DNA from: a virus
Lineage: Duplodnaviria; Heunggongvirae; Uroviricota; Caudoviricetes
Length of the DNA: 13,928 nucleotides
Direction: 5' to 3' (one strand)
Virus record (IMG/VR): IMGVR_UViG_3300035661_000046
Coordinates: 64,001 to 77,928 of that record
The position numbers and the translations under genes were made by a program. Below, in pieces: positions 1-13,928 of this stretch. The notes under the pieces were generated by a model. The model made no database searches. It saw nothing but the letters and a program-made list of their open reading frames with translations, and was not told the origin of the DNA. Position 1 is the stretch's first letter. Each line of letters begins with the position of its first letter.

Positions 1-330
1 TACATAACATCTCATTGCTGCCTCCATAGGATTAGATCCAATAGTGAGTACTAGGGATACCTCATCCTTCACGCTATTATGCATAAGTGCTATCCACCCT
101 CCCTTTATATGTTCATCTAATTGTGTTTCTATACTCTCTCGTACTATAATAGGGTAAGCTTGGTTTGGTGTTCGAGATGGAGTGAAGTTTTTAATAGTAT
201 AATAAGGGCTGCTCTCTGACATTAACCACTCCCCGCTAACGGTGTCAAACATAGGAGAATATCCTTCTGCCACTGCAACAGCATAGTCTAAGGCTGTGCC
301 AGTTAGGTTTTTAACTTTTGTGCTTTTCAT
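1..330 (-). CDS. DUF2591 / NinX-like phage protein (partial, runs off window start)
   Basis: Manual translation from ATG at 330: MKSTKVKNLTGTALDYAVAVAEG...FTPSRTPNQAYPIIVRESI...GGWIA...GSNPMEAAMRCYV, open to base 1. It matches the remembered family pattern (L.G.ALD.AVA.AEG / PII.RE.I / AAMRCYV). The start overlaps the stop of the upstream ORF (ATGA). Not in the supplied track. Confidence 0.75.
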   Translation of the reverse strand, partial: MKSTKVKNLTGTALDYAVAVAEGYSPMFDTVSGEWLMSESSPYYTIKNFTPSRTPNQAYPIIVRESIETQLDEHIKGGWIALMHNSVKDEVSLVLTIGSNPMEAAMRCYV

Positions 331-564: not shown

Positions 565-2289
565 CTATTCTTTCCTTCCTTGTTGACGATGAATAAAATC
601 AATTAACATTTCTTGGTTTACAGTTAGTTTGCTATCTAATGTATCTACAATATGATTGTCAATATAACTACTACTAATCAGCCTATAATACTCACAATCA
701 TTTTTCTGACCAATACGATGAACTCTGTCTTGTTGTTGAAGGTATACCTCTAAGCTGAAGTTGAGGCTATAGAAGATTTGAGTAAATACTTTCGTGTCGA
801 TGCCAGGAGGTATGTCTATCTCCATTTCCTCTAGTTCGTCTTCTGAAGAACCGAGAATAGTCACGCCATAGTTAACCGCTTTAGCCTGGCATAGTAAAAA
901 GGATATATTAGGGTTTGTGTTAAACTCTCGTACTTTCGCTCCAACATCCTTTTCTCCGCCTTGAATGATCAAGTAGTTATAACCTGCAGAGTCTAACCCT
1001 TTAGTAATAATGTCTCTTTCACCAGCCATGTTATACCAGATTATACAGCGTCTACCTTTAAGCTTGCCAGATGCTAGATTAATCAAAGCATCCATTTTTG
1101 GCTGCTCATCAAAAGTAACTGTTACTCGTTTTGGTTGTCTCTTCTTAGGAGCTTTTTCTCCATTTAATTCTTCTAGGGAGTCGTCGTTCTTAATATAGAT
1201 AAACCCATTGGATATCTGTACCAGCTTACTAGCCAAAGCCAGAGGGTTGTCTACCTCAACAGTAAGGTCTCCAATAGTGGCCATGTAGTTAGCAGCTAAC
1301 ATATTAAAGACTTCTCTCTGCTGCTCTCCCATAGGAACTCGAACATCAAAAAAGTTCTTTTCAGGTAAACCTTTAAGCCATTCTTTCTTAGTCATTACTA
1401 TAGAAGCAGACTCTAGAATAGACCTAACCTCGGCAACTCTACGATAACCTACTATTAAATCACGCTCTCCAACCTTAACCTTTACGGCGTACTCATCTTT
1501 AAACCTAGTGTAACTTTCTCCAATCAAGGCAGGCTCTAAGAATCGTATTGGAGAACAGATGTCAGAAGGGGCTTTAGTTACTAGAGTACCAGACATGATG
1601 CTACCATAAGGAATGCCTTTACGAAGGCGTAGAATCGACTTGGTTCGATTTGATTTAGGATCTTTGATCAAGCCCTCATCAACTCCGATAAAGTCAACCT
1701 TGACCTTCTTGAGCTGTTCTTCAAATATCACAGCTTTATTATAGTTAATAACAACAATATCATGCGATAATATTCCAGCTACTTCTGATTCCCAGTCGGT
1801 AGTTTTAACTATATAAATGGTCTTGTCTGGACGATGAACCTTTAGCTCTTCTTGCCACACAAACAGTAGAGGTCTAGGACATACTATTACAGATTTCTTA
1901 AATTCCATAAGCGCAATAAAATCTAAGATTACTTTAGTCTTACCCATTCCAGGTTCTAACAATAGCCCTCCACCGCCTATTGTGTATAAATACCTTAAGG
2001 CTATTTCCTGATGAACTAAAGGAGTCGTAAAGAATTTAAAGGACTCGGGTATTGGTTTAAGTTTGAAGTCTGCTTTCACAAGTGCAGAAATCTCTGGGTC
2101 TATTTTTAATGCAAACTTCTTAAACATAAGTCTGCTTATTAAGTTGTGCAGTACCACTGGTTTAGCAGGGCTAAAAAAGTAAGGACCCTTCCTTAGAAAC
2201 CCAGGAAAAGCCAAAGCTTTTTTCATTTCAGCTTGGCTTTCCGGAGTGAATACTACTGTTGTTTTATTATCTGTAAAAGTTATCTTCAT
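565..2289 (-). CDS. SNF2-like (superfamily 2) helicase/ATPase
   Basis: Walker A-like LLLEPGMGKT, motif Ia VIVCP, Walker B VDEG..IKDPKSNRTK, motif III MSGT, motif VI QQQDRVHRIGQ; 574 aa. Confidence 0.9.
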   Translation of the reverse strand: MKITFTDNKTTVVFTPESQAEMKKALAFPGFLRKGPYFFSPAKPVVLHNLISRLMFKKFALKIDPEISALVKADFKLKPIPESFKFFTTPLVHQEIALRYLYTIGGGGLLLEPGMGKTKVILDFIALMEFKKSVIVCPRPLLFVWQEELKVHRPDKTIYIVKTTDWESEVAGILSHDIVVINYNKAVIFEEQLKKVKVDFIGVDEGLIKDPKSNRTKSILRLRKGIPYGSIMSGTLVTKAPSDICSPIRFLEPALIGESYTRFKDEYAVKVKVGERDLIVGYRRVAEVRSILESASIVMTKKEWLKGLPEKNFFDVRVPMGEQQREVFNMLAANYMATIGDLTVEVDNPLALASKLVQISNGFIYIKNDDSLEELNGEKAPKKRQPKRVTVTFDEQPKMDALINLASGKLKGRRCIIWYNMAGERDIITKGLDSAGYNYLIIQGGEKDVGAKVREFNTNPNISFLLCQAKAVNYGVTILGSSEDELEEMEIDIPPGIDTKVFTQIFYSLNFSLEVYLQQQDRVHRIGQKNDCEYYRLISSSYIDNHIVDTLDSKLTVNQEMLIDFIHRQQGRKE

Positions 2290-6492: not shown

Positions 6493-8385
6493 ATGGCAAC
6501 CTATCAAGATCAAATATCTACATTCGGCAACGTTGGGGGGCAAGCAAGTCCCTGGTTCACTGTTGCGAACCAATTCTTACCAAGAAACTTGCACGACGTT
6601 ATACGTTGGGTTCGTTATATTACTATACAGTCTCCGGTAACTACGGAGGTTATTCGTAAGCAAGCTACTTACCCTATTACGGATTTTGTAGTAGAGACTA
6701 ACAGTGATGCAGTTAAAGCTAAGTATAAAGAAATATTTGATAGCTTTAAGATGAAGCAGGTATTACAGGATATCGGATTTGATCATTACACAATAGGTAA
6801 CGTTTTTGTGTCTGTATTCTTTCCGGTACATAGAACCCTTACCTGCCCTTCTTGTGCTACAGCATACAACGCTAAGAAGGCGACTTTCTTAAAGTTTCAA
6901 AAGTTCTCCTTTCACGGAGAGTGTCCCGCATGTAGCTATATCGGAGACTTCCCTAGAAAAGATACTAAGTCTTTAGATATTAAAGACATGAACCTTATTA
7001 AGTGGAACCCACAGCACATCTCAGTTAACTATAATCCAATAACAGGTGAGGCTGAATACTACTACACAATTCCAAATGATATTCGCCGCAGAGTATTGCA
7101 GGGGGATAAGCTGTTTGTTAATAGTATTCCTTGGGCTTTTATAGAAGCAATTAAATATAACCAAGACTTCAAATTCGACTCAGAAAACATATTCCATTTG
7201 AGAAACGTATCTACAGGTACGGTTATTGAGGGCATCAGTATGCCTCCGTTAATAAGCTTGTTCTCTCTAGTATTTTATCAGGCTACATTACGCAAAGCTA
7301 ACGAGGCTATTGCCACCGAATACCTAAATCCAATGCGAGTTGTATTTCCTCAGGCACAGACTGGTAACTCAGACCCTGTAGTAGGAATGAGCTTGAAGAA
7401 CTTTGCTGGAAACATGAAGCAAGCTTTAGAACAGCATAAACGTGATAAGAACCACTTCATGATAGCTCCTGTACCAATCGGGTATCAGACTATTGGCGGT
7501 GAAGGCAAGAACTTACTAGTATCTGCTGAGATTGATCAGGCTGAACAGTCTATTCTTTTAAGTCTAGGTGTATCCCAAGAATTACTAAGTGGAACCACTA
7601 ACTGGACTAGTTCTACAGTCGGATTGCGTATGTTAGAAAATACAATGAATAGCTACGTCACTCAACTTACTGACCTTATTAACTGGGTTATGAGTAAAGT
7701 AACTACATACTTGTCTGTAGAGACTTGTGCTGTCAGCCTTACCCCATTCAAGTTAATGGATAACGATGCTTTGAAGCAGACCATCGAAGGCCTTATTAGT
7801 AGCGGAGACGGTTCTATTAGTAGTCTATATGAGTTGTTAGGCATGGACTATCAAGAAGAACTCGACAAGATAACTAAGGATAAAGTATCTAAGGCTAAAT
7901 TTGATATTGAATCTCAGTTTGAAGTTGAACAAGCTCAATTCCTAGCGTCTAAGGACATTAATACTAGACTGGATGGAAATCCTCATTATAAAGAATTGCT
8001 CACTCAAGCTACTGACATTGCTAGTCAATTATCTGGTGCCGATCCTTCTACTCTTAACTCTCTGATGGTTAATTTAAAATTAGAAAACTATCCGTTATAC
8101 ATGCTTACTGTTAAGCTTATGAATGAGGGCGCTATGACTACTCCAGGCCAAGATCCTAATCAGCAAGGTCAGCAAGGTCAGCAAGGTCAAGGGGATGATG
8201 GCTCTGGGGGTGCATCTCAGCCAGGAGGTAGCGCTGGACAAGCTCAATCGGAAGGTGCTTCTACTTCTCCTGGACAAGCTGGCACTGGTTCTGCAGCTAA
8301 ATCTAATAAACCGGCGGGTACTGCACCTAAGGTCAGTAAAGGTAAGTCTCCCGTTAAACAAGTTTCTAGTACAGGAGGTAAATAA
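6493..8385 (+). CDS. Probable portal protein with a CxxC...CxxC insert and a low-complexity tail
   Basis: 630 aa. Portal-like layout: QDIGFDHYTIGNVFV, the EAEYYY / NIFHLR beta region, GISMPPLISL, and EIDQAEQSILLSLGVSQELLSG (I...LGV...LL.G pattern). Q/G/S/K-rich C-terminus. Confidence 0.7.
   Translation: MATYQDQISTFGNVGGQASPWFTVANQFLPRNLHDVIRWVRYITIQSPVTTEVIRKQATYPITDFVVETNSDAVKAKYKEIFDSFKMKQVLQDIGFDHYTIGNVFVSVFFPVHRTLTCPSCATAYNAKKATFLKFQKFSFHGECPACSYIGDFPRKDTKSLDIKDMNLIKWNPQHISVNYNPITGEAEYYYTIPNDIRRRVLQGDKLFVNSIPWAFIEAIKYNQDFKFDSENIFHLRNVSTGTVIEGISMPPLISLFSLVFYQATLRKANEAIATEYLNPMRVVFPQAQTGNSDPVVGMSLKNFAGNMKQALEQHKRDKNHFMIAPVPIGYQTIGGEGKNLLVSAEIDQAEQSILLSLGVSQELLSGTTNWTSSTVGLRMLENTMNSYVTQLTDLINWVMSKVTTYLSVETCAVSLTPFKLMDNDALKQTIEGLISSGDGSISSLYELLGMDYQEELDKITKDKVSKAKFDIESQFEVEQAQFLASKDINTRLDGNPHYKELLTQATDIASQLSGADPSTLNSLMVNLKLENYPLYMLTVKLMNEGAMTTPGQDPNQQGQQGQQGQGDDGSGGASQPGGSAGQAQSEGASTSPGQAGTGSAAKSNKPAGTAPKVSKGKSPVKQVSSTGGK
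8161..8187 (+). repeat. In-frame (CAGCAAGGT)x3 repeat encoding QQG
   Basis: Three perfect 9-bp copies in the portal tail. Confidence 0.9.
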
Positions 8386-8642: not shown

Positions 8643-11600
8643 ATGTCAGACTCCTTATACCCTATATTTTCTTCTCCTCATGCTATTAATAAACAGGCAG
8701 ATGATGCCTTAATAGAAGGGCTACAGACTCAGTTCCCTATCGAGAATAAAAACTTTGAACTTAAGCTAAGTAACGTTCATGCGGATAAAAAAGAATTCTC
8801 TCAGGAAGACGAGAAGCAAGCTATTCTTAAATCCAAGTCTTTAACCTATCCTATTAAGGGAGACCTTACCCTTATTAGTAAGGCTACTGGTAAAGTAGTA
8901 GACGTAGAGAAGAACTTCACTCTTATGGATTCTTTTTCCATGACTGGAAAGCATACTCTTATTTATAATGGTAACAACTACGTAGTTGCTAACCAGTTAC
9001 AGTTGCGTCCTGGCGTGTACACTCGTAGTAAAGAGTCTGGAGAGTTAGAGTCACATATAAACACGGCTACTGGTCGTAGCTTCTCTATTACTCTGGATCC
9101 TAAGTCTAGCCTGTTTTACATCAACGTTGCCTCCTCTACTATTCTACTAGCCCCTTTGCTATATAGAGTATTTGGAATAGGGAAGACTGAAGTATACAAA
9201 TATATACCTCCTGCTGTCTGGGACGCCAATGTGAAAGCGGCTGAGGGTAAAGAGACTAAGCTGATCGGAGACATGTACAACAAATTAGTCTCTACTGCTC
9301 TACGAACCAAGAATGCCAATACTGATCAGATGGCTTTAGATATTAAAAACTCTCTTGAGCAGTCTCAATTATCTACACTTACTACTAAGATTACTTTAGG
9401 TAAATCTATTGATGCTGTTCGTCCAGAAGCTATTCTTCTAGCACTACATAATTTAGTACAAGTTCATACTGGTGAAAGAGAGGAGGATAACCGCGACTCC
9501 CTGCAGTTCAAGCGTGTCCAAAACCTACCTGATTACTTGTCTAGAAGATTTGAGAAAGAACACGCCTCTATTGCTAAAATTAAAAGCAAGCTCTCTTTTA
9601 ACCTAGAGAAACTGGATGCTAACGCTCCTAGAATACGTGCAGCTATACCAGCCAAGCCTTTTAACAAGGTGTACTCGAGTTATATTCTAGATTCCCCACT
9701 GGTGTCTACACCTAGTGAAACAAATCCACTAGAGAGCCTTGAGAACGTCGGTAAGGTAACAGTTCTTGGTGCAGATGAAGGTGGTATAGGAGATGAGCGT
9801 GGAGTACCTATGACCGCTCGTAATATTGATCCTTCTCATCTAGGTATCATAGATCCGACTCGTACTCCAGAATCAAGCCACGCCGGTATTGATCAACGTT
9901 TTACTATTAATGCTAGACGTGACCGTGCAGGGAACTTGTACTCTAGAGTGCTAGACTTGCAAGGTAAGCCTTATAACCTATCAGTATCTGACCTTATGAA
10001 TTCTGTGGTAGGTTTTCCTAACCAGGAAGGTAAGAAAGTTGTTCAGGCTCAAGATCATGGCCAGTTAAAAGAAGTACCTCGTAGTACTGTGCAATACTGG
10101 ATACCGGATGCTACTAGCCTGTATACCGTTACTACAAACTTAGTGCCCTTCCTGAACAGTAACCATCCTGGTCGTTTAACTATGGCGGGTAAAGCCTTAC
10201 CTCAAGCATTGTCATTAGTTAATAGAGAGATACCTTTAGTACAGACTATGTCTGAGAGCAAAGGTGCTTTTATTAAACAGTTGGGTGCAGTTGTTAGTAC
10301 TATTTCTCCAGTACATGGGGTGATACATTCTGTCAGTGATAAAAAGATAGTTATCAAGGGTGATGACGGTAAGAAGACCGAGGTTATTCCAGTAAAGAAC
10401 CTGCCTTTTAACATGAAAGGATTCTTGGATGATGAAACTCCTTTGGTTAAAGAGGGAGACCGAGTTAAGCCAGGACAGGTGTTACTAGATAATAACTATA
10501 CTAGAGACGGTAACCTAACCTTAGGTAAAAACCTGACTGTCTCCTACCTACCATATAAAGGCTACAACCACGAGGACGGTATAGTGATCTCTCATTCTGC
10601 TGCCGCGTCACTATCTAGCCATCACTCCTATAAAGTGGACTATGACGTAGTGTCAGACTCTATAATGAAGAAGGGGCTACTACGTCGCTATTACCCTAAC
10701 AAGTTTACTAAAGAGCAGTTGGATAACCTGGATGATGCAGGTTTCGCTAAGGTAGGCTCCACAATGCACCACGGAGATCCTATATACGCTGTCCTAGAGA
10801 AGCGCGAAGCTACTCCAGAGGACAAGATGTTAGGAAGACTACACAAGACCTTGGTTAACCCCTACAGACTTGTTACAGAGGAGTGGAATCACCAAGAGCC
10901 TGGCTTAGTTGTTGACGCACATACCGAAGGTAAATCTATTCGTATTCTACTGCGGTCTGTTAAAGAATTAGAAGTTGGTGACAAACTAACTGGCTTACAT
11001 GGCAATAAAGGTATTGTATCTTTAGTGCTTCCAGACCATGAGATGCCTTATAACAAAGATACTGGTAAACCAGTAGATATGTTGCTTAACCCTGCTTCTG
11101 TTACAAGTCGTATTAACTTAGGACAAATTATGGAAACTGTTGCTGGTAAGCTTGCGCTAAAACGAGGCACTCCTTACTTGTTGCATAACTTCTCTAATGA
11201 AAACAACCTTACGGCATTGAAGAAGCAACTAGCTGACGAGGGTGTTTCCGATACAGAAACATTGATAGATCCTAAGTCAGGCAAGCAGTTAGACAAAGTA
11301 CTCACTGGTCCTCAGTATATACTTAAACTATATAAAACCTCTGATCAAAACCTTTCAGCTCGTAACGTTGGTGCGTATGATAACGTTCTACAACCTACAA
11401 AAGGTGGCGAGCAAGGTTCTAAGTCTGTTGGATATATGGAGATGCTAGGTCTACTAGGTTCTAACTCTCGCCACAACTTAAAAGAGATAGCTACTACTAA
11501 GTCAGAGGATAACTCAGAGTACTGGTCTAAGTTTCTTAATGGTCAAGCGTTGCCTAAACCTAAAACTACTTTTGCTACTAACAAGTTCTTTAATTATCTA

Positions 11601-11984
11601 ACCGGTGCAGGGATTAAGGTTAGTCACGAGAATGGGAACATAATAGCCTCTCCTCTTACAGACCACGATATTATGGGAATGAGTAACGGGGCGTTAACAG
11701 AACCTCTTATGCTTAGTGCAAAGAATACAGAGCCAGAAGAGGGTGGGCTATTCGACCCAAGCATAACTGGAGGTATTAAGGGTAATAAGTGGTCTCATTA
11801 TAAATTAGCAGAGCCTATTGTAAACCCTGTCTTCGAGAATCCTGTTCGTTCTATTCTAGGCCTAAGCTCTAATGATTTTGAAAAGATTACTTCTGGAGCA
11901 TACGGTATTCAGAAGAACGAAAAAGGAAACTTTAACATAATTGATACTGCTAGTGGTAAACTTATTAAAGAACACAAGATATAA
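8643..11984 (+). CDS. rpoB: Phage multisubunit RNA polymerase beta subunit fused to the N-terminal segment of beta-prime
   Basis: Beta motifs in the expected order: NGNNYVVANQLQLRPGVY, SETNPLE, DPSHLGIIDPTRTPES, LVPFL, YKGYNHEDGIVIS, GDKLTGLHGNKGIVS, DMLLNPASVTSRINLGQ, YILKL, VGYMEM. From ~11640 the sequence is beta-prime-like: SPLTDHDIMGMSNG, EPEEGGLFDPSITG, WSHYKLAEPIVNP. Confidence 0.93.
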   Translation: MSDSLYPIFSSPHAINKQADDALIEGLQTQFPIENKNFELKLSNVHADKKEFSQEDEKQAILKSKSLTYPIKGDLTLISKATGKVVDVEKNFTLMDSFSMTGKHTLIYNGNNYVVANQLQLRPGVYTRSKESGELESHINTATGRSFSITLDPKSSLFYINVASSTILLAPLLYRVFGIGKTEVYKYIPPAVWDANVKAAEGKETKLIGDMYNKLVSTALRTKNANTDQMALDIKNSLEQSQLSTLTTKITLGKSIDAVRPEAILLALHNLVQVHTGEREEDNRDSLQFKRVQNLPDYLSRRFEKEHASIAKIKSKLSFNLEKLDANAPRIRAAIPAKPFNKVYSSYILDSPLVSTPSETNPLESLENVGKVTVLGADEGGIGDERGVPMTARNIDPSHLGIIDPTRTPESSHAGIDQRFTINARRDRAGNLYSRVLDLQGKPYNLSVSDLMNSVVGFPNQEGKKVVQAQDHGQLKEVPRSTVQYWIPDATSLYTVTTNLVPFLNSNHPGRLTMAGKALPQALSLVNREIPLVQTMSESKGAFIKQLGAVVSTISPVHGVIHSVSDKKIVIKGDDGKKTEVIPVKNLPFNMKGFLDDETPLVKEGDRVKPGQVLLDNNYTRDGNLTLGKNLTVSYLPYKGYNHEDGIVISHSAAASLSSHHSYKVDYDVVSDSIMKKGLLRRYYPNKFTKEQLDNLDDAGFAKVGSTMHHGDPIYAVLEKREATPEDKMLGRLHKTLVNPYRLVTEEWNHQEPGLVVDAHTEGKSIRILLRSVKELEVGDKLTGLHGNKGIVSLVLPDHEMPYNKDTGKPVDMLLNPASVTSRINLGQIMETVAGKLALKRGTPYLLHNFSNENNLTALKKQLADEGVSDTETLIDPKSGKQLDKVLTGPQYILKLYKTSDQNLSARNVGAYDNVLQPTKGGEQGSKSVGYMEMLGLLGSNSRHNLKEIATTKSEDNSEYWSKFLNGQALPKPKTTFATNKFFNYLTGAGIKVSHENGNIIASPLTDHDIMGMSNGALTEPLMLSAKNTEPEEGGLFDPSITGGIKGNKWSHYKLAEPIVNPVFENPVRSILGLSSNDFEKITSGAYGIQKNEKGNFNIIDTASGKLIKEHKI

Positions 11985-11995
11985 AAGGGAATTTT

Positions 11996-12017
11996 AGTGG
12001 AAAACAAGTATTTAGTA
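11996..12017 (+). repeat. 22-bp direct repeat, copy 1 (AGTGGAAAACAAGTATTTAGTA)
   Basis: Exact match to 12797-12818; covers the start codon and first codons of the 266-aa gene. Confidence 0.95.
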
Positions 12018-12797
12018 AAGATAGCGGAAGATTACAAGAAAAAGAAAGTTGGATTAGGTAAGAGTCTAGGCATAGCGGCTCTTACTGGAACAGTAGCAGG
12101 ATCAGTTGCTCAAGTAGCGGGTTCTGCAGGGCTTATGAACTCAGGCCTATATACGGGAGAGGGTTATAATCACGAAGCAGACGGTCATACCATTCGTAGA
12201 TTCATAAAGGATAACAAATTAAAAGTAAGTTTTAATGATAAAAATCCAGATATACATAAAGTAAAGTCTACTAGATTTGGAGCACGTATTAGAGATATGA
12301 TAAAAAACCATGGTGCTCCTGCATATATTCATGCTCAGCATCATGGGTATTCCAAGAATTTTATAACTAAAAACAAAGGAAGGTTCCCTAATAAGAAAGT
12401 CAATGATGCTATAATGCACGAACTGGGGCACGCTAAAAACTGGAAGCATATGCCTGCATCCGTAGGACTAGCCTATAGTATTAACAGGGGTGCTTTAGGT
12501 ACAGCAGGGTCATTCGGTACCTCTGCTGCCCTTTTATCCAATGAGAAAACTGAAAAATATGCTCCGTTAGCTGCAGTTGCCCACCAGTCTCCTATTCTAT
12601 TGGATGAGACTATGGCTCACGTACATGCTTTCGGAGCCATTAAAAAAGCTAAAGGATTAAAAGCTGCTCTTAGATTTGCTAAGAATACCGTAGCTCCTGC
12701 TCTAGGTACATATGGTGCGGCAGCGGCGGGGGAAATAGGTGGTGCTATGTGGGCGAAACATATAGTGCATAACATTAGAAATAAAGGAAATAAGTAA
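11997..12797 (+). CDS. Putative zincin-type (HExxH) metallopeptidase-like protein with Gly/Ala-rich hydrophobic segments
   Basis: AIMHELGHA (HExxH) with a downstream Glu candidate in ILLDETMAH; GTG start after an AAGGGA SD; N-terminus MENKYLVKIA. Confidence 0.6.
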   Translation: MENKYLVKIAEDYKKKKVGLGKSLGIAALTGTVAGSVAQVAGSAGLMNSGLYTGEGYNHEADGHTIRRFIKDNKLKVSFNDKNPDIHKVKSTRFGARIRDMIKNHGAPAYIHAQHHGYSKNFITKNKGRFPNKKVNDAIMHELGHAKNWKHMPASVGLAYSINRGALGTAGSFGTSAALLSNEKTEKYAPLAAVAHQSPILLDETMAHVHAFGAIKKAKGLKAALRFAKNTVAPALGTYGAAAAGEIGGAMWAKHIVHNIRNKGNK

Positions 12798-12818
12798 GTG
12801 GAAAACAAGTATTTAGTA
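12797..12818 (+). repeat. 22-bp direct repeat, copy 2
   Basis: Exact match to 11996-12017, 801 bp downstream; its last base is the A of the next ATG. Confidence 0.95.
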
Positions 12819-12821
12819 TGA
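12798..12821 (+). other. 7-codon mini-ORF (M)ENKYLV whose stop overlaps the next start (ATGA)
   Basis: GTG GAA AAC AAG TAT TTA GTA TGA, with AAAGGA 9 nt upstream. Confidence 0.45.
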
Positions 12822-13222
12822 AAGACTTGGGTACTGTAGCTGCGGGAGTAGGCATAGCAGGTGCCGTCGGTGGTGGCATATATGGTCTTAGCAAACTACT
12901 TAGCAAATGGCAGAGAGAAGCTGAAGAAAGACGTAAGGCGGCATTTGAGGCTCACGTAGATAATCACAAGTTAGCCCCTACTATGGAGAGTTCTAATGTA
13001 ACCTATGAGGATATTAAAAAGCTTCCAGAGGATCACGACTTTTATAGAGGTGGTGATATTAGTAAGGCAGTTACAACCCTAATCGGGGCTCATAAAGCTG
13101 CTGGAACCTTTAGTAGCTACGCTGAAGGAGAGCGTAAGAAAAGCGACTATGACTCCTTGGAGAATGAACGCGATGAGCTAGAGGATGAAGTGTCTAGACT
13201 TCGGTATAGAGCCTACCCATAG
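12818..13222 (+). CDS. Hypothetical protein (134 aa): N-terminal Gly-rich hydrophobic segment and C-terminal coiled-coil-like region
   Basis: LGTVAAGVGIAGAVGGGIYGL followed by charged helices; no recognised domain. Confidence 0.75.
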   Translation: MKDLGTVAAGVGIAGAVGGGIYGLSKLLSKWQREAEERRKAAFEAHVDNHKLAPTMESSNVTYEDIKKLPEDHDFYRGGDISKAVTTLIGAHKAAGTFSSYAEGERKKSDYDSLENERDELEDEVSRLRYRAYP

Positions 13223-13225
13223 ATC

Positions 13226-13232
13226 TAAAATA
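13226..13232 (+). promoter_or_regulatory. Possible third copy of the TAAAATA motif
   Basis: CTAAAATA begins ~30 bp before the beta-prime ATG, matching the copy at 2890-2897. A short AT-rich motif, so it could be chance. Confidence 0.35.
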
Positions 13233-13255
13233 TGTACAGATAAGAGAACCTATAA

Positions 13256-13928
13256 ATGACAGATGAATTAAAAGTTGGTGGAGACGCCTTTGAGGAAATG
13301 CTGAAGCATGTGAATGTGGACGCTCAGATAAAGTCTATTAAGGAGAACGTGCCTACAACTACGTCTGTGTCTAAGAGAGACGTCCTTATTAAAAAACTTA
13401 AGTATCTCTCCGGATTAAAGAAGGTAGACCTTAAACCTGAAGATGCATATATTCTACACAATCTTCCCGTGTTACCTCCTACTTCTAGACCAGTAATGAT
13501 TCAGTCTGGGAACCGCATTGAGTTCAGTGATGTGAATCAGTTATATAGAGATCACATGCTAGTCAATAACTCTCTAAAAGACATTAGAGATGTTCTACCT
13601 CCAGAAGAACTTATAAGTGAACGTAGAGATTTATACGCAGGAGCTAAAGCTATTTCCGGATTAGGTGAGGCTATTTCAGGCGCAAGTAGAGGTAGAAACC
13701 TTAAAGGTATTCTTCAGCAAGTTGCAGGAACGACTGGTCCTAAGACTGGTTATTTTCACAGCAAGCTTTTATCCAAGAAACAAGACTTCTCTGGGCGCGG
13801 TACTATTTACTCCGAGCCTAATCTTGGTTTTAATGAGATGGCAATGCCTAAGGATTCTCTATGGACAATGTACAAGTTTCATATAATCAGAGATTTGGTT
13901 AAGAAAGGATATCACTACGTTGATGCTG
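13256..13928 (+). CDS. rpoC: Phage RNA polymerase beta-prime subunit, main part lacking its N-terminus (partial, runs off window end)
   Basis: Manual translation from ATG 13256, open to the end: MTDELKVGGDAFEEMLK...YILHNLPVLPPTSRPV...SDVNQLYR...KTGYFHSKLLSKKQDFSGRGTI. This matches beta-prime LPVLPPDLRP / SDLNDLYR / [20 protein letters not shown]. The preceding in-frame codon is TAA. Not in the supplied track; the NADFDGD motif is not reached in this window. Confidence 0.92.
   Translation, partial: MTDELKVGGDAFEEMLKHVNVDAQIKSIKENVPTTTSVSKRDVLIKKLKYLSGLKKVDLKPEDAYILHNLPVLPPTSRPVMIQSGNRIEFSDVNQLYRDHMLVNNSLKDIRDVLPPEELISERRDLYAGAKAISGLGEAISGASRGRNLKGILQQVAGTTGPKTGYFHSKLLSKKQDFSGRGTIYSEPNLGFNEMAMPKDSLWTMYKFHIIRDLVKKGYHYVDA

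What the first reader, a model, noticed from the sequence alone, without database searches (positions are those of the whole stretch)
8643..13928. Re-partitioned phage RNAP: beta fused to the beta-prime N-terminus, with the rest of beta-prime as a separate gene
Seen: the 1113-aa ORF runs past the normal beta end (FFNYLTGAGIKVSHE, ~11630) into beta-prime region A-like sequence and stops at 11984. Beta-prime resumes at 13256 with DELKVGGDAFEEMLK, which aligns by eye to E. coli DEFDAKMGAEAIQALLK, so little or nothing appears lost. Established: phiKZ/AR9-type phage RNAPs are split at other positions, some bacteria carry whole beta-beta-prime fusions, and this beta-prime region between conserved regions A and B carries a large lineage-specific insert in Thermus. 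Inference: an ancestral fused polypeptide was re-split at an insertion-tolerant surface site, giving a two-chain enzyme with a non-canonical boundary. Membership of the described mReC lineage of RNAP-encoding Caudovirales is plausible but unverified.
Basis: partly seen in the sequence, partly recalled or inferred. Interest (0 to 1): 0.85.

Follow-up and report, generated by a model that had tools for sequence, protein, structure and literature searches.

The report
Three-piece phage RNA polymerase genes
This uncultured large phage encodes its own bacterial-type RNA polymerase cut at unusual places: all of beta is joined to the first ~115 residues of beta-prime, and the rest of beta-prime follows as separate genes; the layout is real but shared by a whole clade of related phages.

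Summary
ORF 8643-11984 (1113 aa) is a complete beta subunit. It continues into about 120 residues that a profile matches only to the beta-prime N-terminus, without its zinc-binding domain. ORF 13256-end resumes at E. coli beta-prime residue ~178, with nothing lost. This point is exactly where Thermus beta-prime carries its large insert.

More distant relatives (Salmonella phage Arash gp206, Vibrio phage D69, many metagenomic phages) have an unbroken beta::beta-prime-N gene of ~1525 aa, or a full ~2000-aa fusion. The break is therefore a secondary gene fission in a hypervariable linker.

It is not peculiar to this window. More than 50 distinct relatives share it, with spacers from 38 nt to over 8 kb. 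The two closest relatives have only a 38-39 nt spacer, so the 1.27 kb with two orphan genes arrived after the split.

Intron, intein, read-through and pseudogene readings are rejected. Relatives show a third chain (beta-prime C, ~606 aa) that lies beyond this contig's end, so the enzyme has three chains, not two. mReC membership is unverified.

This scan has already noted the same three-piece layout on other DNA. I found no paper that describes it. I class it as a new variant of a known kind, of moderate interest.

The parts
8643..11984 (+). Gene for beta::beta-prime-N1 (1113 aa). Beta runs to about base 11630. Residues ~993-1113 are the beta-prime N-terminus (about Taq beta-prime 8-157) lacking the zinc-binding domain.
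   Evidence: Purifying selection against the closest relative L046 (pN 0.11, pS 0.61-0.74).
11631..11981 (+). The beta-prime-derived tail of the fusion protein.
   Evidence: A tail-only profile hits only beta-prime chains at residues 8-54 and 89-128. It contacts the next chain in the complex model.
11985..13255 (.). Spacer between the two polymerase genes, enlarged here by a ~1.24 kb cargo insertion. It is 38-39 nt in the two closest relatives.
   Evidence: No Rfam match.
11997..12797 (+). Cargo gene 1 (266 aa). It has glycine-rich hydrophobic segments and an HELGH motif, and no Pfam, PHROG or NCBIfam family. It is weakly homologous to part of a 634-aa J-domain protein at the same site in relative L007.
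   Evidence: (E 8e-7).
11996..12017 (+). Left copy of an exact 22-bp direct repeat bracketing cargo gene 1.
12797..12818 (+). Right copy of the 22-bp repeat. It repeats the first seven codons of cargo gene 1 (VENKYLV) and runs into the ATG of cargo gene 2.
12818..13222 (+). Cargo gene 2 (134 aa). It has an N-terminal glycine-zipper-like hydrophobic segment and a C-terminal coiled-coil-like segment, and no family.
13223..13255 (+). Retained original spacer just upstream of the next polymerase gene. It contains CTAAAATA, also present in the short spacers of L046 and L047.
   Evidence: The motif is not enriched in the window.
13256..13928 (+). Gene for beta-prime-N2 (the middle piece). It starts at E. 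coli beta-prime ~175 and is cut by the contig end after 224 aa. It is ~385 aa in relatives and there carries the catalytic NADFDGD loop.
6493..8385 (+). Portal protein gene (context). Its order is syntenic with Arash gp204-gp205-gp206.
   Evidence: 47% identity to Arash gp204; Arash annotation.

Best explanation
The window holds the first two genes of the phage's own sigma-dependent multisubunit RNA polymerase. The phage is an Arash-like tailed phage of roughly 170-185 kb.

In this family beta and beta-prime were already joined in one gene. In the window's clade that fused gene underwent a fission inside a short, hypervariable surface linker of beta-prime, between conserved regions A and B. 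This is the site where Thermus carries a ~290-residue insert.

The products are:
- chain 1: beta plus beta-prime residues ~8-157 without the zinc-binding domain (1113 aa);
- chain 2: beta-prime ~175-555, including the catalytic loop (~385 aa in relatives);
- chain 3, by inference from relatives: beta-prime ~570-end (~606 aa).

The chains are translated separately and assemble non-covalently. The beta-prime stub stays covalently attached to the beta C-terminus, with which it forms one structural module of the clamp. Its strand around WSHYKLAEPIVNP pairs with LPVLPPTSRP of chain 2.

After the fission the new intergenic spacer became a permissive landing site. Different lineages have put different cargo there, and this phage acquired two small membrane-type orphan genes.

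Shown here: the homologies, the position of the break, its sharing by a clade, selection on both pieces, and the absence of an intron or intein. Inferred: separate translation, assembly, the order of events, and virion packaging (by analogy with Arash).
For: Homology and position of the break:
- The tail is homologous to the beta-prime N-terminus.
- The second ORF starts at E. coli beta-prime 178. In a full-length relative the piece starts at T. thermophilus 456 and at residue 165 of the insert-deleted Taq construct.
- Unbroken relatives read straight through the break...LIKAINVTGVMHKEAEAGETLVGGHALKAML... in Arash. The linkers there are 15-36 residues long and unrelated in sequence.

Distribution:
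- Every IMG/VR relative at 60-67% identity with enough sequence (27 loci) stops at this point.
- 31 of 38 database hits to the tail are 1093-1153 aa long.
- The split forms cluster on the tree (96 SH-aLRT). With wider sampling a single origin is not rejected (AU p 0.335).
- Fused forms dominate the wider family: most of the best 150 cluster representatives are ~2000 aa, with beta-prime starting near residue 1000.

Function of both pieces:
- Against the closest relative L046, pN is 0.11 and pS 0.61-0.84 for beta, the tail and chain 2. Synonymous sites are at or near saturation.
- Complex model of the beta C-terminus plus tail with chain 2: score 0.82 against a best control of 0.00. That mark was reached by 58 of 80 solved complexes and 2 of 110 mismatched pairs. 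The runs agree in at least 96% of contacts and partner pLDDT is at least 81. Solved RNAP structures exist, so this pass shows likeness, not proof of binding.

No splicing element:
- No Rfam hit in the window at E up to 1, and none at the gathering score in seven relatives' loci.
- The same search finds a group I intron at 107.7 bits inside the beta gene of relative L037, which serves as a positive control.

Context:
- The closest relatives have 38-39 nt spacers.
- A sigma70-family gene lies on this contig and in 5 of 5 relatives' genomes. No alpha subunit (PF01000) was found in those five.
- In Arash, the unbroken homologue gp206 and gp216 are among the most abundant proteins in purified virions (PMC10585845).
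Against: Separate translation is therefore inferred.

Chain 2 is truncated by the contig end and chain 3 is not on the contig. The three-chain statement for this phage rests on relatives.

The Shine-Dalgarno-like sequence before 13256 is weak (AAGAGA, about 9 nt upstream).

In the wider tree three unbroken forms (1506-1517 aa) fall nominally inside the split group. The history may therefore be more complex than one fission.

The direction of change (fused first) depends on rooting with the full-fusion relatives.
Confidence: 0.85

Rival explanations
1. The two pieces are rejoined into one chain. The 1.27 kb would be a group I or II intron, the proteins would carry a split intein, or ribosomes would read through or bypass the gap.
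For: This genome and family do carry self-splicing elements. Relative L037 has a group I intron with an HNH gene inside the beta part.
Against: There is no Rfam match across 11500-13928 at E up to 1, nor at the gathering score in seven relatives' loci.

The two closest relatives have spacers of only 38-39 nt, too short for an intron.

The reading frames of the two pieces differ inconsistently among relatives, and the gap ranges from 38 nt to over 8 kb.

The homologous sequence runs to within a few residues of both new termini, leaving no room for intein halves, and no intein domain was found.
Confidence: 0.03
2. The break is damage: a pseudogene in decay or a metagenome assembly chimera, with no functional split enzyme.
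For: The contig is a metagenomic fragment estimated at 44% complete. The second piece is truncated.
Against: The same break occurs in more than 50 distinct sequences from independent samples and databases.

Both sides are under strong purifying selection.

Complete genomes of the clade keep all three pieces.
Confidence: 0.02
3. The fission was caused by insertion of mobile cargo DNA into the linker, and it happened several times or was reverted. Short-spacer forms would then be secondary deletions, and the site a recurrent fission/re-fusion point.
For: Spacers hold very different cargo in different subclades: J-domain and glycine-zipper proteins, DUF4183, and CBM5/12-bearing proteins that I read as fibre-like.

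Three unbroken forms nest nominally among split ones.

The acidic C-terminal tails of many split forms resemble the acidic linker of the unbroken form P0032.

An exact 22-bp repeat brackets cargo gene 1, which indicates recent recombination.
Against: A single origin of the split is not rejected (AU p 0.335).

Short spacers (38-370 nt) occur in several subclades, including the window's own, which is most simply read as the older state.

No transposase, integrase or homing endonuclease was seen in any of the gap proteins tested.
Confidence: 0.1

Closest known systems
RNA polymerase of Salmonella phage Arash (gp206, 1525 aa; gp216, 606 aa; sigma gp10/gp196) and of Vibrio phages D69, D148 and D181
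   Same: Same family: 52-54% identity over the whole 1113-aa protein. The gene order portal / small gene / polymerase is the same. Beta is joined to a beta-prime N-terminus that lacks the zinc-binding domain. Beta-prime C is a separate gene, the phages carry their own sigma70-type factor, and no alpha was detected. The Arash proteins are abundant in virions (PMC10585845).
   Different: In Arash and D69 the fused gene runs unbroken through the region A-B linker to about E. coli beta-prime 555 (two chains). Here and in the window's clade it is cut once more at ~150/175 (three chains), with a variable spacer. The Arash paper annotates the genes simply as beta and beta-prime and, in the passages I searched, does not mention the fusion.
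Full-length beta::beta-prime fusions: phage forms of ~2000 aa (L039-L043 and most of the best 150 cluster representatives), and bacterial ones (Wolinella, Ca. Adlerbacteria per PMC11515920; the NCBIfam beta/beta-prime models NF007172 and NF011417)
   Same: The beta C-terminus is joined directly to the beta-prime N-terminus. The second ORF matches the bacterial fusion model NF007172 at positions 1568-1780 of 2890.
   Different: Those are single chains. The window keeps only the junction and the first ~115 beta-prime residues on the beta chain. The scores lie far below the NCBIfam cut-offs, so this is not a member of the bacterial fusion families.
Natural splits of beta-prime in cyanobacteria and chloroplasts (gamma / beta-prime, rpoC1/rpoC2) and in archaea (A'/A'')
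   Same: A large subunit is encoded as separate genes whose products assemble. The family's second break (~E. coli 555-570) lies some tens of residues upstream of the cyanobacterial gamma / beta-prime break.
   Different: The break studied here (~E. coli 150-178) matches none of these split sites. It corresponds instead to the lineage-specific insertion site used by Thermus and by mycobacteria (alignment offset).
phiKZ/AR9-type virion and non-virion multisubunit RNAPs of jumbo phages (PMC7598289, PMC7824862)
   Same: These are phage-encoded beta/beta-prime-type enzymes made of several polypeptides cut at non-cellular positions. One set is packaged in virions.
   Different: In those phages beta is itself split into two or three proteins, beta and beta-prime are not fused, and no sigma factor is encoded (PMC7824862). 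Here beta is whole and fused, and sigma is present. Similarity of P0001 to phiKZ-type phage proteins is marginal: the match to phiR1-37 covers 11% of the query.
mReC lineage (Weinheimer and Aylward 2020, PMC7481178)
   Same: Uncultured tailed phages of large genome size with beta and beta-prime recognisably related to cellular ones. The size classes in the supplement (beta ~1000-1050 with beta-prime ~900-975) add up to the ~2000-aa fused forms seen here.
   Different: The mReC entries in the part of the supplement that I read have beta and beta-prime as separate genes, and the paper does not mention fusion or this split in mReC. No mReC sequence was available for a tree.

Membership tests
Arash-like phage RNAP (beta::beta-prime fused family) | Whole beta joined in one ORF to the beta-prime N-terminus, which lacks the Cys4 zinc-binding domain | tested here: met
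   GGLFDPSITGGIKGNKWSHYKLAEP joins the two conserved blocks with no cysteines.
Arash-like phage RNAP (beta::beta-prime fused family) | High full-length similarity to Arash gp206 / D69 and the same gene neighbourhood (portal, small gene, polymerase) | tested here: met
   54% and 52% identity over 99-100% of the query. The portal protein is 47% identical. Annotation.
Arash-like phage RNAP (beta::beta-prime fused family) | Separate beta-prime C-terminal gene (~606 aa) | not testable with these tools
   The contig ends inside the middle piece and no copy lies elsewhere on the 78-kb contig. The gene is present in split-clade relatives L003/L004, L007 and L032.
Arash-like phage RNAP (beta::beta-prime fused family) | Phage-encoded sigma70-family factor; no alpha subunit | tested here: met
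   Sigma70_r2 at contig position 43266-43460, 38.9 bits. Sigma is present in 5 of 5 relatives' genomes and PF01000 in 0 of 5, with the control genomes positive. Alpha was not searched on the window's own incomplete contig.
mReC lineage | Beta and beta-prime as two separate genes, each matching COG0085 / COG0086 | tested here: not met
   Here beta is fused to part of beta-prime and beta-prime is fragmented. The mReC entries in the supplement part I read have separate genes.
mReC lineage | RNAP sequences fall inside the mReC clade of the RNAP tree | not tested
mReC lineage | T4-type major capsid protein (PF07068) | tested here: inconclusive
   No match in five relatives' genomes, but the control rang nowhere, so the search is uninformative.
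Group I / II intron | Catalytic RNA fold between two exons that join in frame | tested here: not met
   No Rfam hit in the window at E up to 1 or at the gathering score in seven relatives' loci. Positive control at 107.7 bits in L037. Spacers of 38-39 nt in the closest relatives.
Intein / split intein | Hint-domain halves flanking the break, with a nucleophile at the +1 position | tested here: not met
   No intein domain in Pfam. Homology to unbroken relatives runs to the last residues of chain 1 and begins at residue 4-5 of chain 2.
phiKZ/AR9-type split RNAP | Beta split into two or three polypeptides, beta and beta-prime unfused, no sigma | tested here: not met
   Beta is one piece and fused. 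Sigma is present. The family features are as described in PMC7824862.

The most novel reading that the evidence does not exclude
The region A-B linker of beta-prime in this phage family may be a recurrent breakpoint, so that the gene was cut there more than once or was re-fused in some lineages. The genes that settle in the gap would then not be random cargo. J-domain / glycine-zipper / HExxH membrane proteins in the window's neighbourhood of the tree, and the large CBM5/12-bearing proteins I read as fibre-like elsewhere, would be co-expressed factors tied to assembly or virion packaging of the multi-chain polymerase.
Probability: 0.12. Interest if true: 0.6.

Novelty: new variant of a known kind. 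Interest (0 to 1): 0.45.

Why it matters
Cellular RNA polymerases keep the beta / beta-prime boundary fixed. This phage family shows that the boundary can be erased and redrawn.

Here the first ~115 residues of beta-prime travel with beta, and the chain is cut at a surface loop that other lineages use for large insertions. This is a natural experiment on which polypeptide boundaries the enzyme tolerates. It suggests that the covalent beta::beta-prime link may replace the alpha-dimer assembly platform, since no alpha was found in relatives. It also offers a graded series (one, two and three chains) within one family that includes cultivable phages (Arash, D69) for biochemical comparison.

It also illustrates how a newly created intergenic gap inside an essential gene becomes a hotspot for gene gain.

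Practically, annotation pipelines label these pieces 'beta' or 'hypothetical protein' and miss the architecture.

Tried and rejected
- Single-sequence search of the tail against the PDB gave only E ~1.4 for beta-prime. It needed profiles.
- Pfam, PHROGs and NCBIfam give no family for the two cargo proteins. The protein atlas places cargo gene 1 only in unnamed viral clusters.
- The spacer motif CTAAAATA, shared with L046 and L047, is not enriched in the window (2 matches against 2.5 expected). I make no promoter claim.
- The sigma70-type promoter and terminator scan of 11700-13500 gave nothing above chance.
- The search for T4-type capsid PF07068 in relatives was uninformative because the control was silent.
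- Sample numbers of six relatives were looked up in the mReC supplement. Two sample numbers occur there, but none tied a relative's contig to an mReC contig.
- Read-through or bypass is rejected because frame offsets between the pieces are inconsistent among relatives.
- Beta-prime C was searched for elsewhere on the own contig and not found.

Full report
**What is in the sequence.**
The window is the last 13.9 kb of a 77.9-kb IMG/VR phage contig estimated at 44% complete. On the + strand it holds:
- a 630-aa portal gene (47% identical to Arash gp204);
- an 84-aa gene;
- the 1113-aa ORF 8643-11984 (P0001);
- two ORFs of 266 and 134 aa (11997-12797, P0002; 12818-13222, P0003);
- an ORF from 13256 that runs off the contig after 224 aa (P0004).

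**Identity of the pieces.**
P0001 carries Rpb2 domains 2, 3 and 6 up to residue 921. The beta C-terminal motif FFNYLTGAGIKVSHE ends at base 11630.

The remaining ~120 residues gave only a weak single-sequence match to beta-prime. A profile of this tail from 29 relatives hits nothing in the PDB except beta-prime chains (31 sequences, best E 1.3e-5). It aligns to T. aquaticus beta-prime 8-54 and, colinearly, to 89-128, so the Cys4 zinc-binding segment is absent.

A profile of eight unbroken relatives spans the break in one match to beta-prime (E 1e-76, B. subtilis 19-53 and 90-482).

P0004 aligns from its residue 5 to E. coli beta-prime 178 (E 3e-24) and to rpoC models.

**Where the break lies.**
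A complete middle piece from relative L007 (385 aa) aligns from residue 6 to E. coli 180, to T. thermophilus 456, and to residue 165 of the T. aquaticus construct lacking its insert. It ends near E. coli ~555. The break is thus precisely at the lineage-specific insertion site between conserved regions A and B.

For mycobacterial chains the alignment likewise restarts at this point, about 75 residues later in the chain.

Comparison with unbroken relatives shows that only a short linker is involved. Arash reads ...LIKAINVTGVMHKEAEAGETLVGGHALKAML... where the window has ...LIKEHKI(stop) and then MTDELKVGGDAFEEML. Linkers in unbroken forms are 15-36 residues long and unrelated in sequence.

**Family context.**
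Salmonella phage Arash gp206 (1525 aa) and Vibrio phage D69 (1527 aa) are 52-54% identical to P0001 over its full length and continue unbroken through the P0004 region. A separate ~606-aa beta-prime C gene follows 0.6-5 kb downstream.

Among 42 IMG/VR loci, the architecture tracks identity to P0001:
- relatives at 30-33% identity have a single ~2000-aa beta::beta-prime ORF;
- one locus at 36% identity (L036) has a ~1470-aa beta::beta-prime-N ORF;
- relatives at 50-56% have the ~1525-aa beta::beta-prime-N ORF;
- every one at 60-67% identity with enough sequence (27 loci) stops at the window's break point.

In the split forms with enough flank, the middle piece is ~385 aa and beta-prime C lies further on. 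The enzyme is therefore three-chain in this clade.

A whole-library profile search shows that fused forms are the rule. Most of the best 150 cluster representatives are ~2000 aa, with beta-prime beginning near residue 1000. In a search with the tail, 31 of 38 hits are 1093-1153 aa long and four are 1450-1517 aa.

**History.**
On a tree of the beta part rooted with the full fusions, the 27 split loci form one group (96 SH-aLRT), nested among beta::beta-prime-N forms.

With 64 rows, three unbroken proteins (1506-1517 aa) fall nominally among the split ones. The support is weak, and a tree with all split forms together is not rejected (AU p 0.335).

The simplest reading is: fusion first, then the break near residue 555-570, then one fission in the A-B linker. 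More than one fission, or a re-fusion, is not excluded.

**The 1.27 kb between the pieces.**
The two closest relatives are P0005 (85% identical over the aligned beta part and the tail up to the break) and P0006. They have the same stop and restart separated by only 39 and 38 nt. The window's two extra genes therefore came after the fission.

Elsewhere the spacer is 120-370 nt, or holds 0.7 to more than 9.9 kb of different genes:
- J-domain and glycine-zipper proteins in the L007, L013 and L032 loci;
- DUF4183 proteins;
- large proteins that I read as fibre-like, one of them bearing CBM5/12 modules.

P0002 has an HELGH motif and matches part of the 634-aa L007 protein (E 8e-7). Otherwise P0002 and P0003 have no family. 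An exact 22-bp repeat brackets P0002.

**Rivals rejected.**
- Intron: there is no Rfam hit in the window at E up to 1, nor at the gathering score in seven relatives' loci. The same tool finds a group I intron (107.7 bits) carrying an HNH gene inside the beta part of relative L037.
- Intein: no domain was found, and no spare residues exist at either new terminus.
- Read-through or bypass: frame offsets and gap lengths are inconsistent among relatives.
- Pseudogene or artefact: against the closest relative L046, pN is ~0.11 and pS 0.61-0.84 for beta, the tail and the middle piece. Synonymous sites are at or near saturation. The break recurs in independent datasets.

**How it probably works.**
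The three chains are made separately and assemble.

A complex model of the beta C-terminus plus tail with P0004 scored 0.82 against a best control of 0.00. That mark was reached by 58 of 80 solved complexes and 2 of 110 mismatched pairs. The runs agree in at least 96% of contacts and partner pLDDT is at least 81. The tightest contacts pair WSHYKLAEPIVNP of the tail with LPVLPPTSRP of P0004. Many RNAP structures are solved, so this pass reflects likeness to them.

The contig and five relatives' genomes encode sigma70-type factors. No alpha (PF01000) was found in those five genomes, three of which are 92-100% complete. The idea that the covalent beta::beta-prime link substitutes for the alpha platform is my inference.

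In Arash, the homologous proteins are among the most abundant in purified virions (PMC10585845). Virion packaging is therefore plausible here but untested.

**Literature and novelty.**
The Arash paper calls the genes beta and beta-prime and, in the passages I searched, does not mention the fusion. The mReC paper does not mention a fusion or this split in mReC, and the supplement part I read lists separate beta and beta-prime genes. The jumbo-phage reviews describe only the phiKZ/AR9 type. A 2024 survey of RNAP insertions lists bacterial fusions and the cyanobacterial split only.

Earlier notes of this scan already record the fused layout many times, and the three-piece layout on several other genomes.

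My verdict is that the architecture is real and undescribed in print. It is a clade-wide variant of the known theme of split and fused RNAP subunits, and it is not unique to this window.

**Limits.**
- The middle piece is truncated and beta-prime C is absent from the contig.
- mReC membership and the root of the family were not tested.

Noticed in passing
L037:11515-11796 (intron core), ORF 11810-12427: In relative L037 the beta part is interrupted after ...MVPFFNS by a group I intron (Rfam RF00028, 107.7 bits) carrying a 205-aa HNH-type endonuclease gene. Vibrio phages D181 and D148 show the same two-piece match with an annotated homing endonuclease.
   Followed up: partly
window 11996-12017 and 12797-12818: An exact 22-bp direct repeat brackets the HExxH gene. 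The second copy encodes a mini-ORF, VENKYLV-stop, whose TGA overlaps the ATG of the 134-aa gene. Gap genes of relatives L007, L013 and L032 start with the same MNKYLEKIA motif, which suggests a rearranged ancestral gene.
   Followed up: partly
L007:13327-15231; L013:4678-5340; L032:11779-12360: At the same inter-polymerase site, a neighbouring branch of the split group carries glycine-zipper proteins ending in a J-domain-like HPD motif (below the Pfam cut-off). The 634-aa L007 protein combines two NKYLEKIAE starts, an HExxH region homologous to the window's 266-aa protein, and the J-domain-like end.
   Followed up: partly
genomes behind L044, L045, L004, L026, L035: None of five complete or near-complete relatives (168-187 kb) has a detectable alpha subunit (PF01000). 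All encode one or two sigma70-family proteins.
   Followed up: partly
P0023, P0032, P0038 (database proteins of 1506-1517 aa): These unbroken beta::beta-prime-N forms have tails ~60% identical to the window's and sit nominally inside the split group on the tree. One of them has a long acidic linker that resembles the acidic C-terminal tails of many split forms.
   Followed up: partly
one search hit list (P0045-P0193): Many fused phage polymerases are 2350-3370 aa long and match the profile in two stretches, or have beta-prime starting near residue 1340-1750. This suggests inteins, large inserts or a larger beta class. They were not examined.
   Followed up: no
window 1-330 (-), 565-2289 (-): A NinX-like protein (PF10765) and an SNF2-family helicase lie upstream on the opposite strand. 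Arash has two helicase genes at the corresponding place.
   Followed up: no
window 11760-11850 (P0001 residues ~1040-1070): The beta-prime zinc-binding domain is cleanly deleted: GGLFDPSITGGIKGNKWSHYKLAEP contains no cysteine. The deletion is shared by the whole family, including the full fusions.
   Followed up: partly
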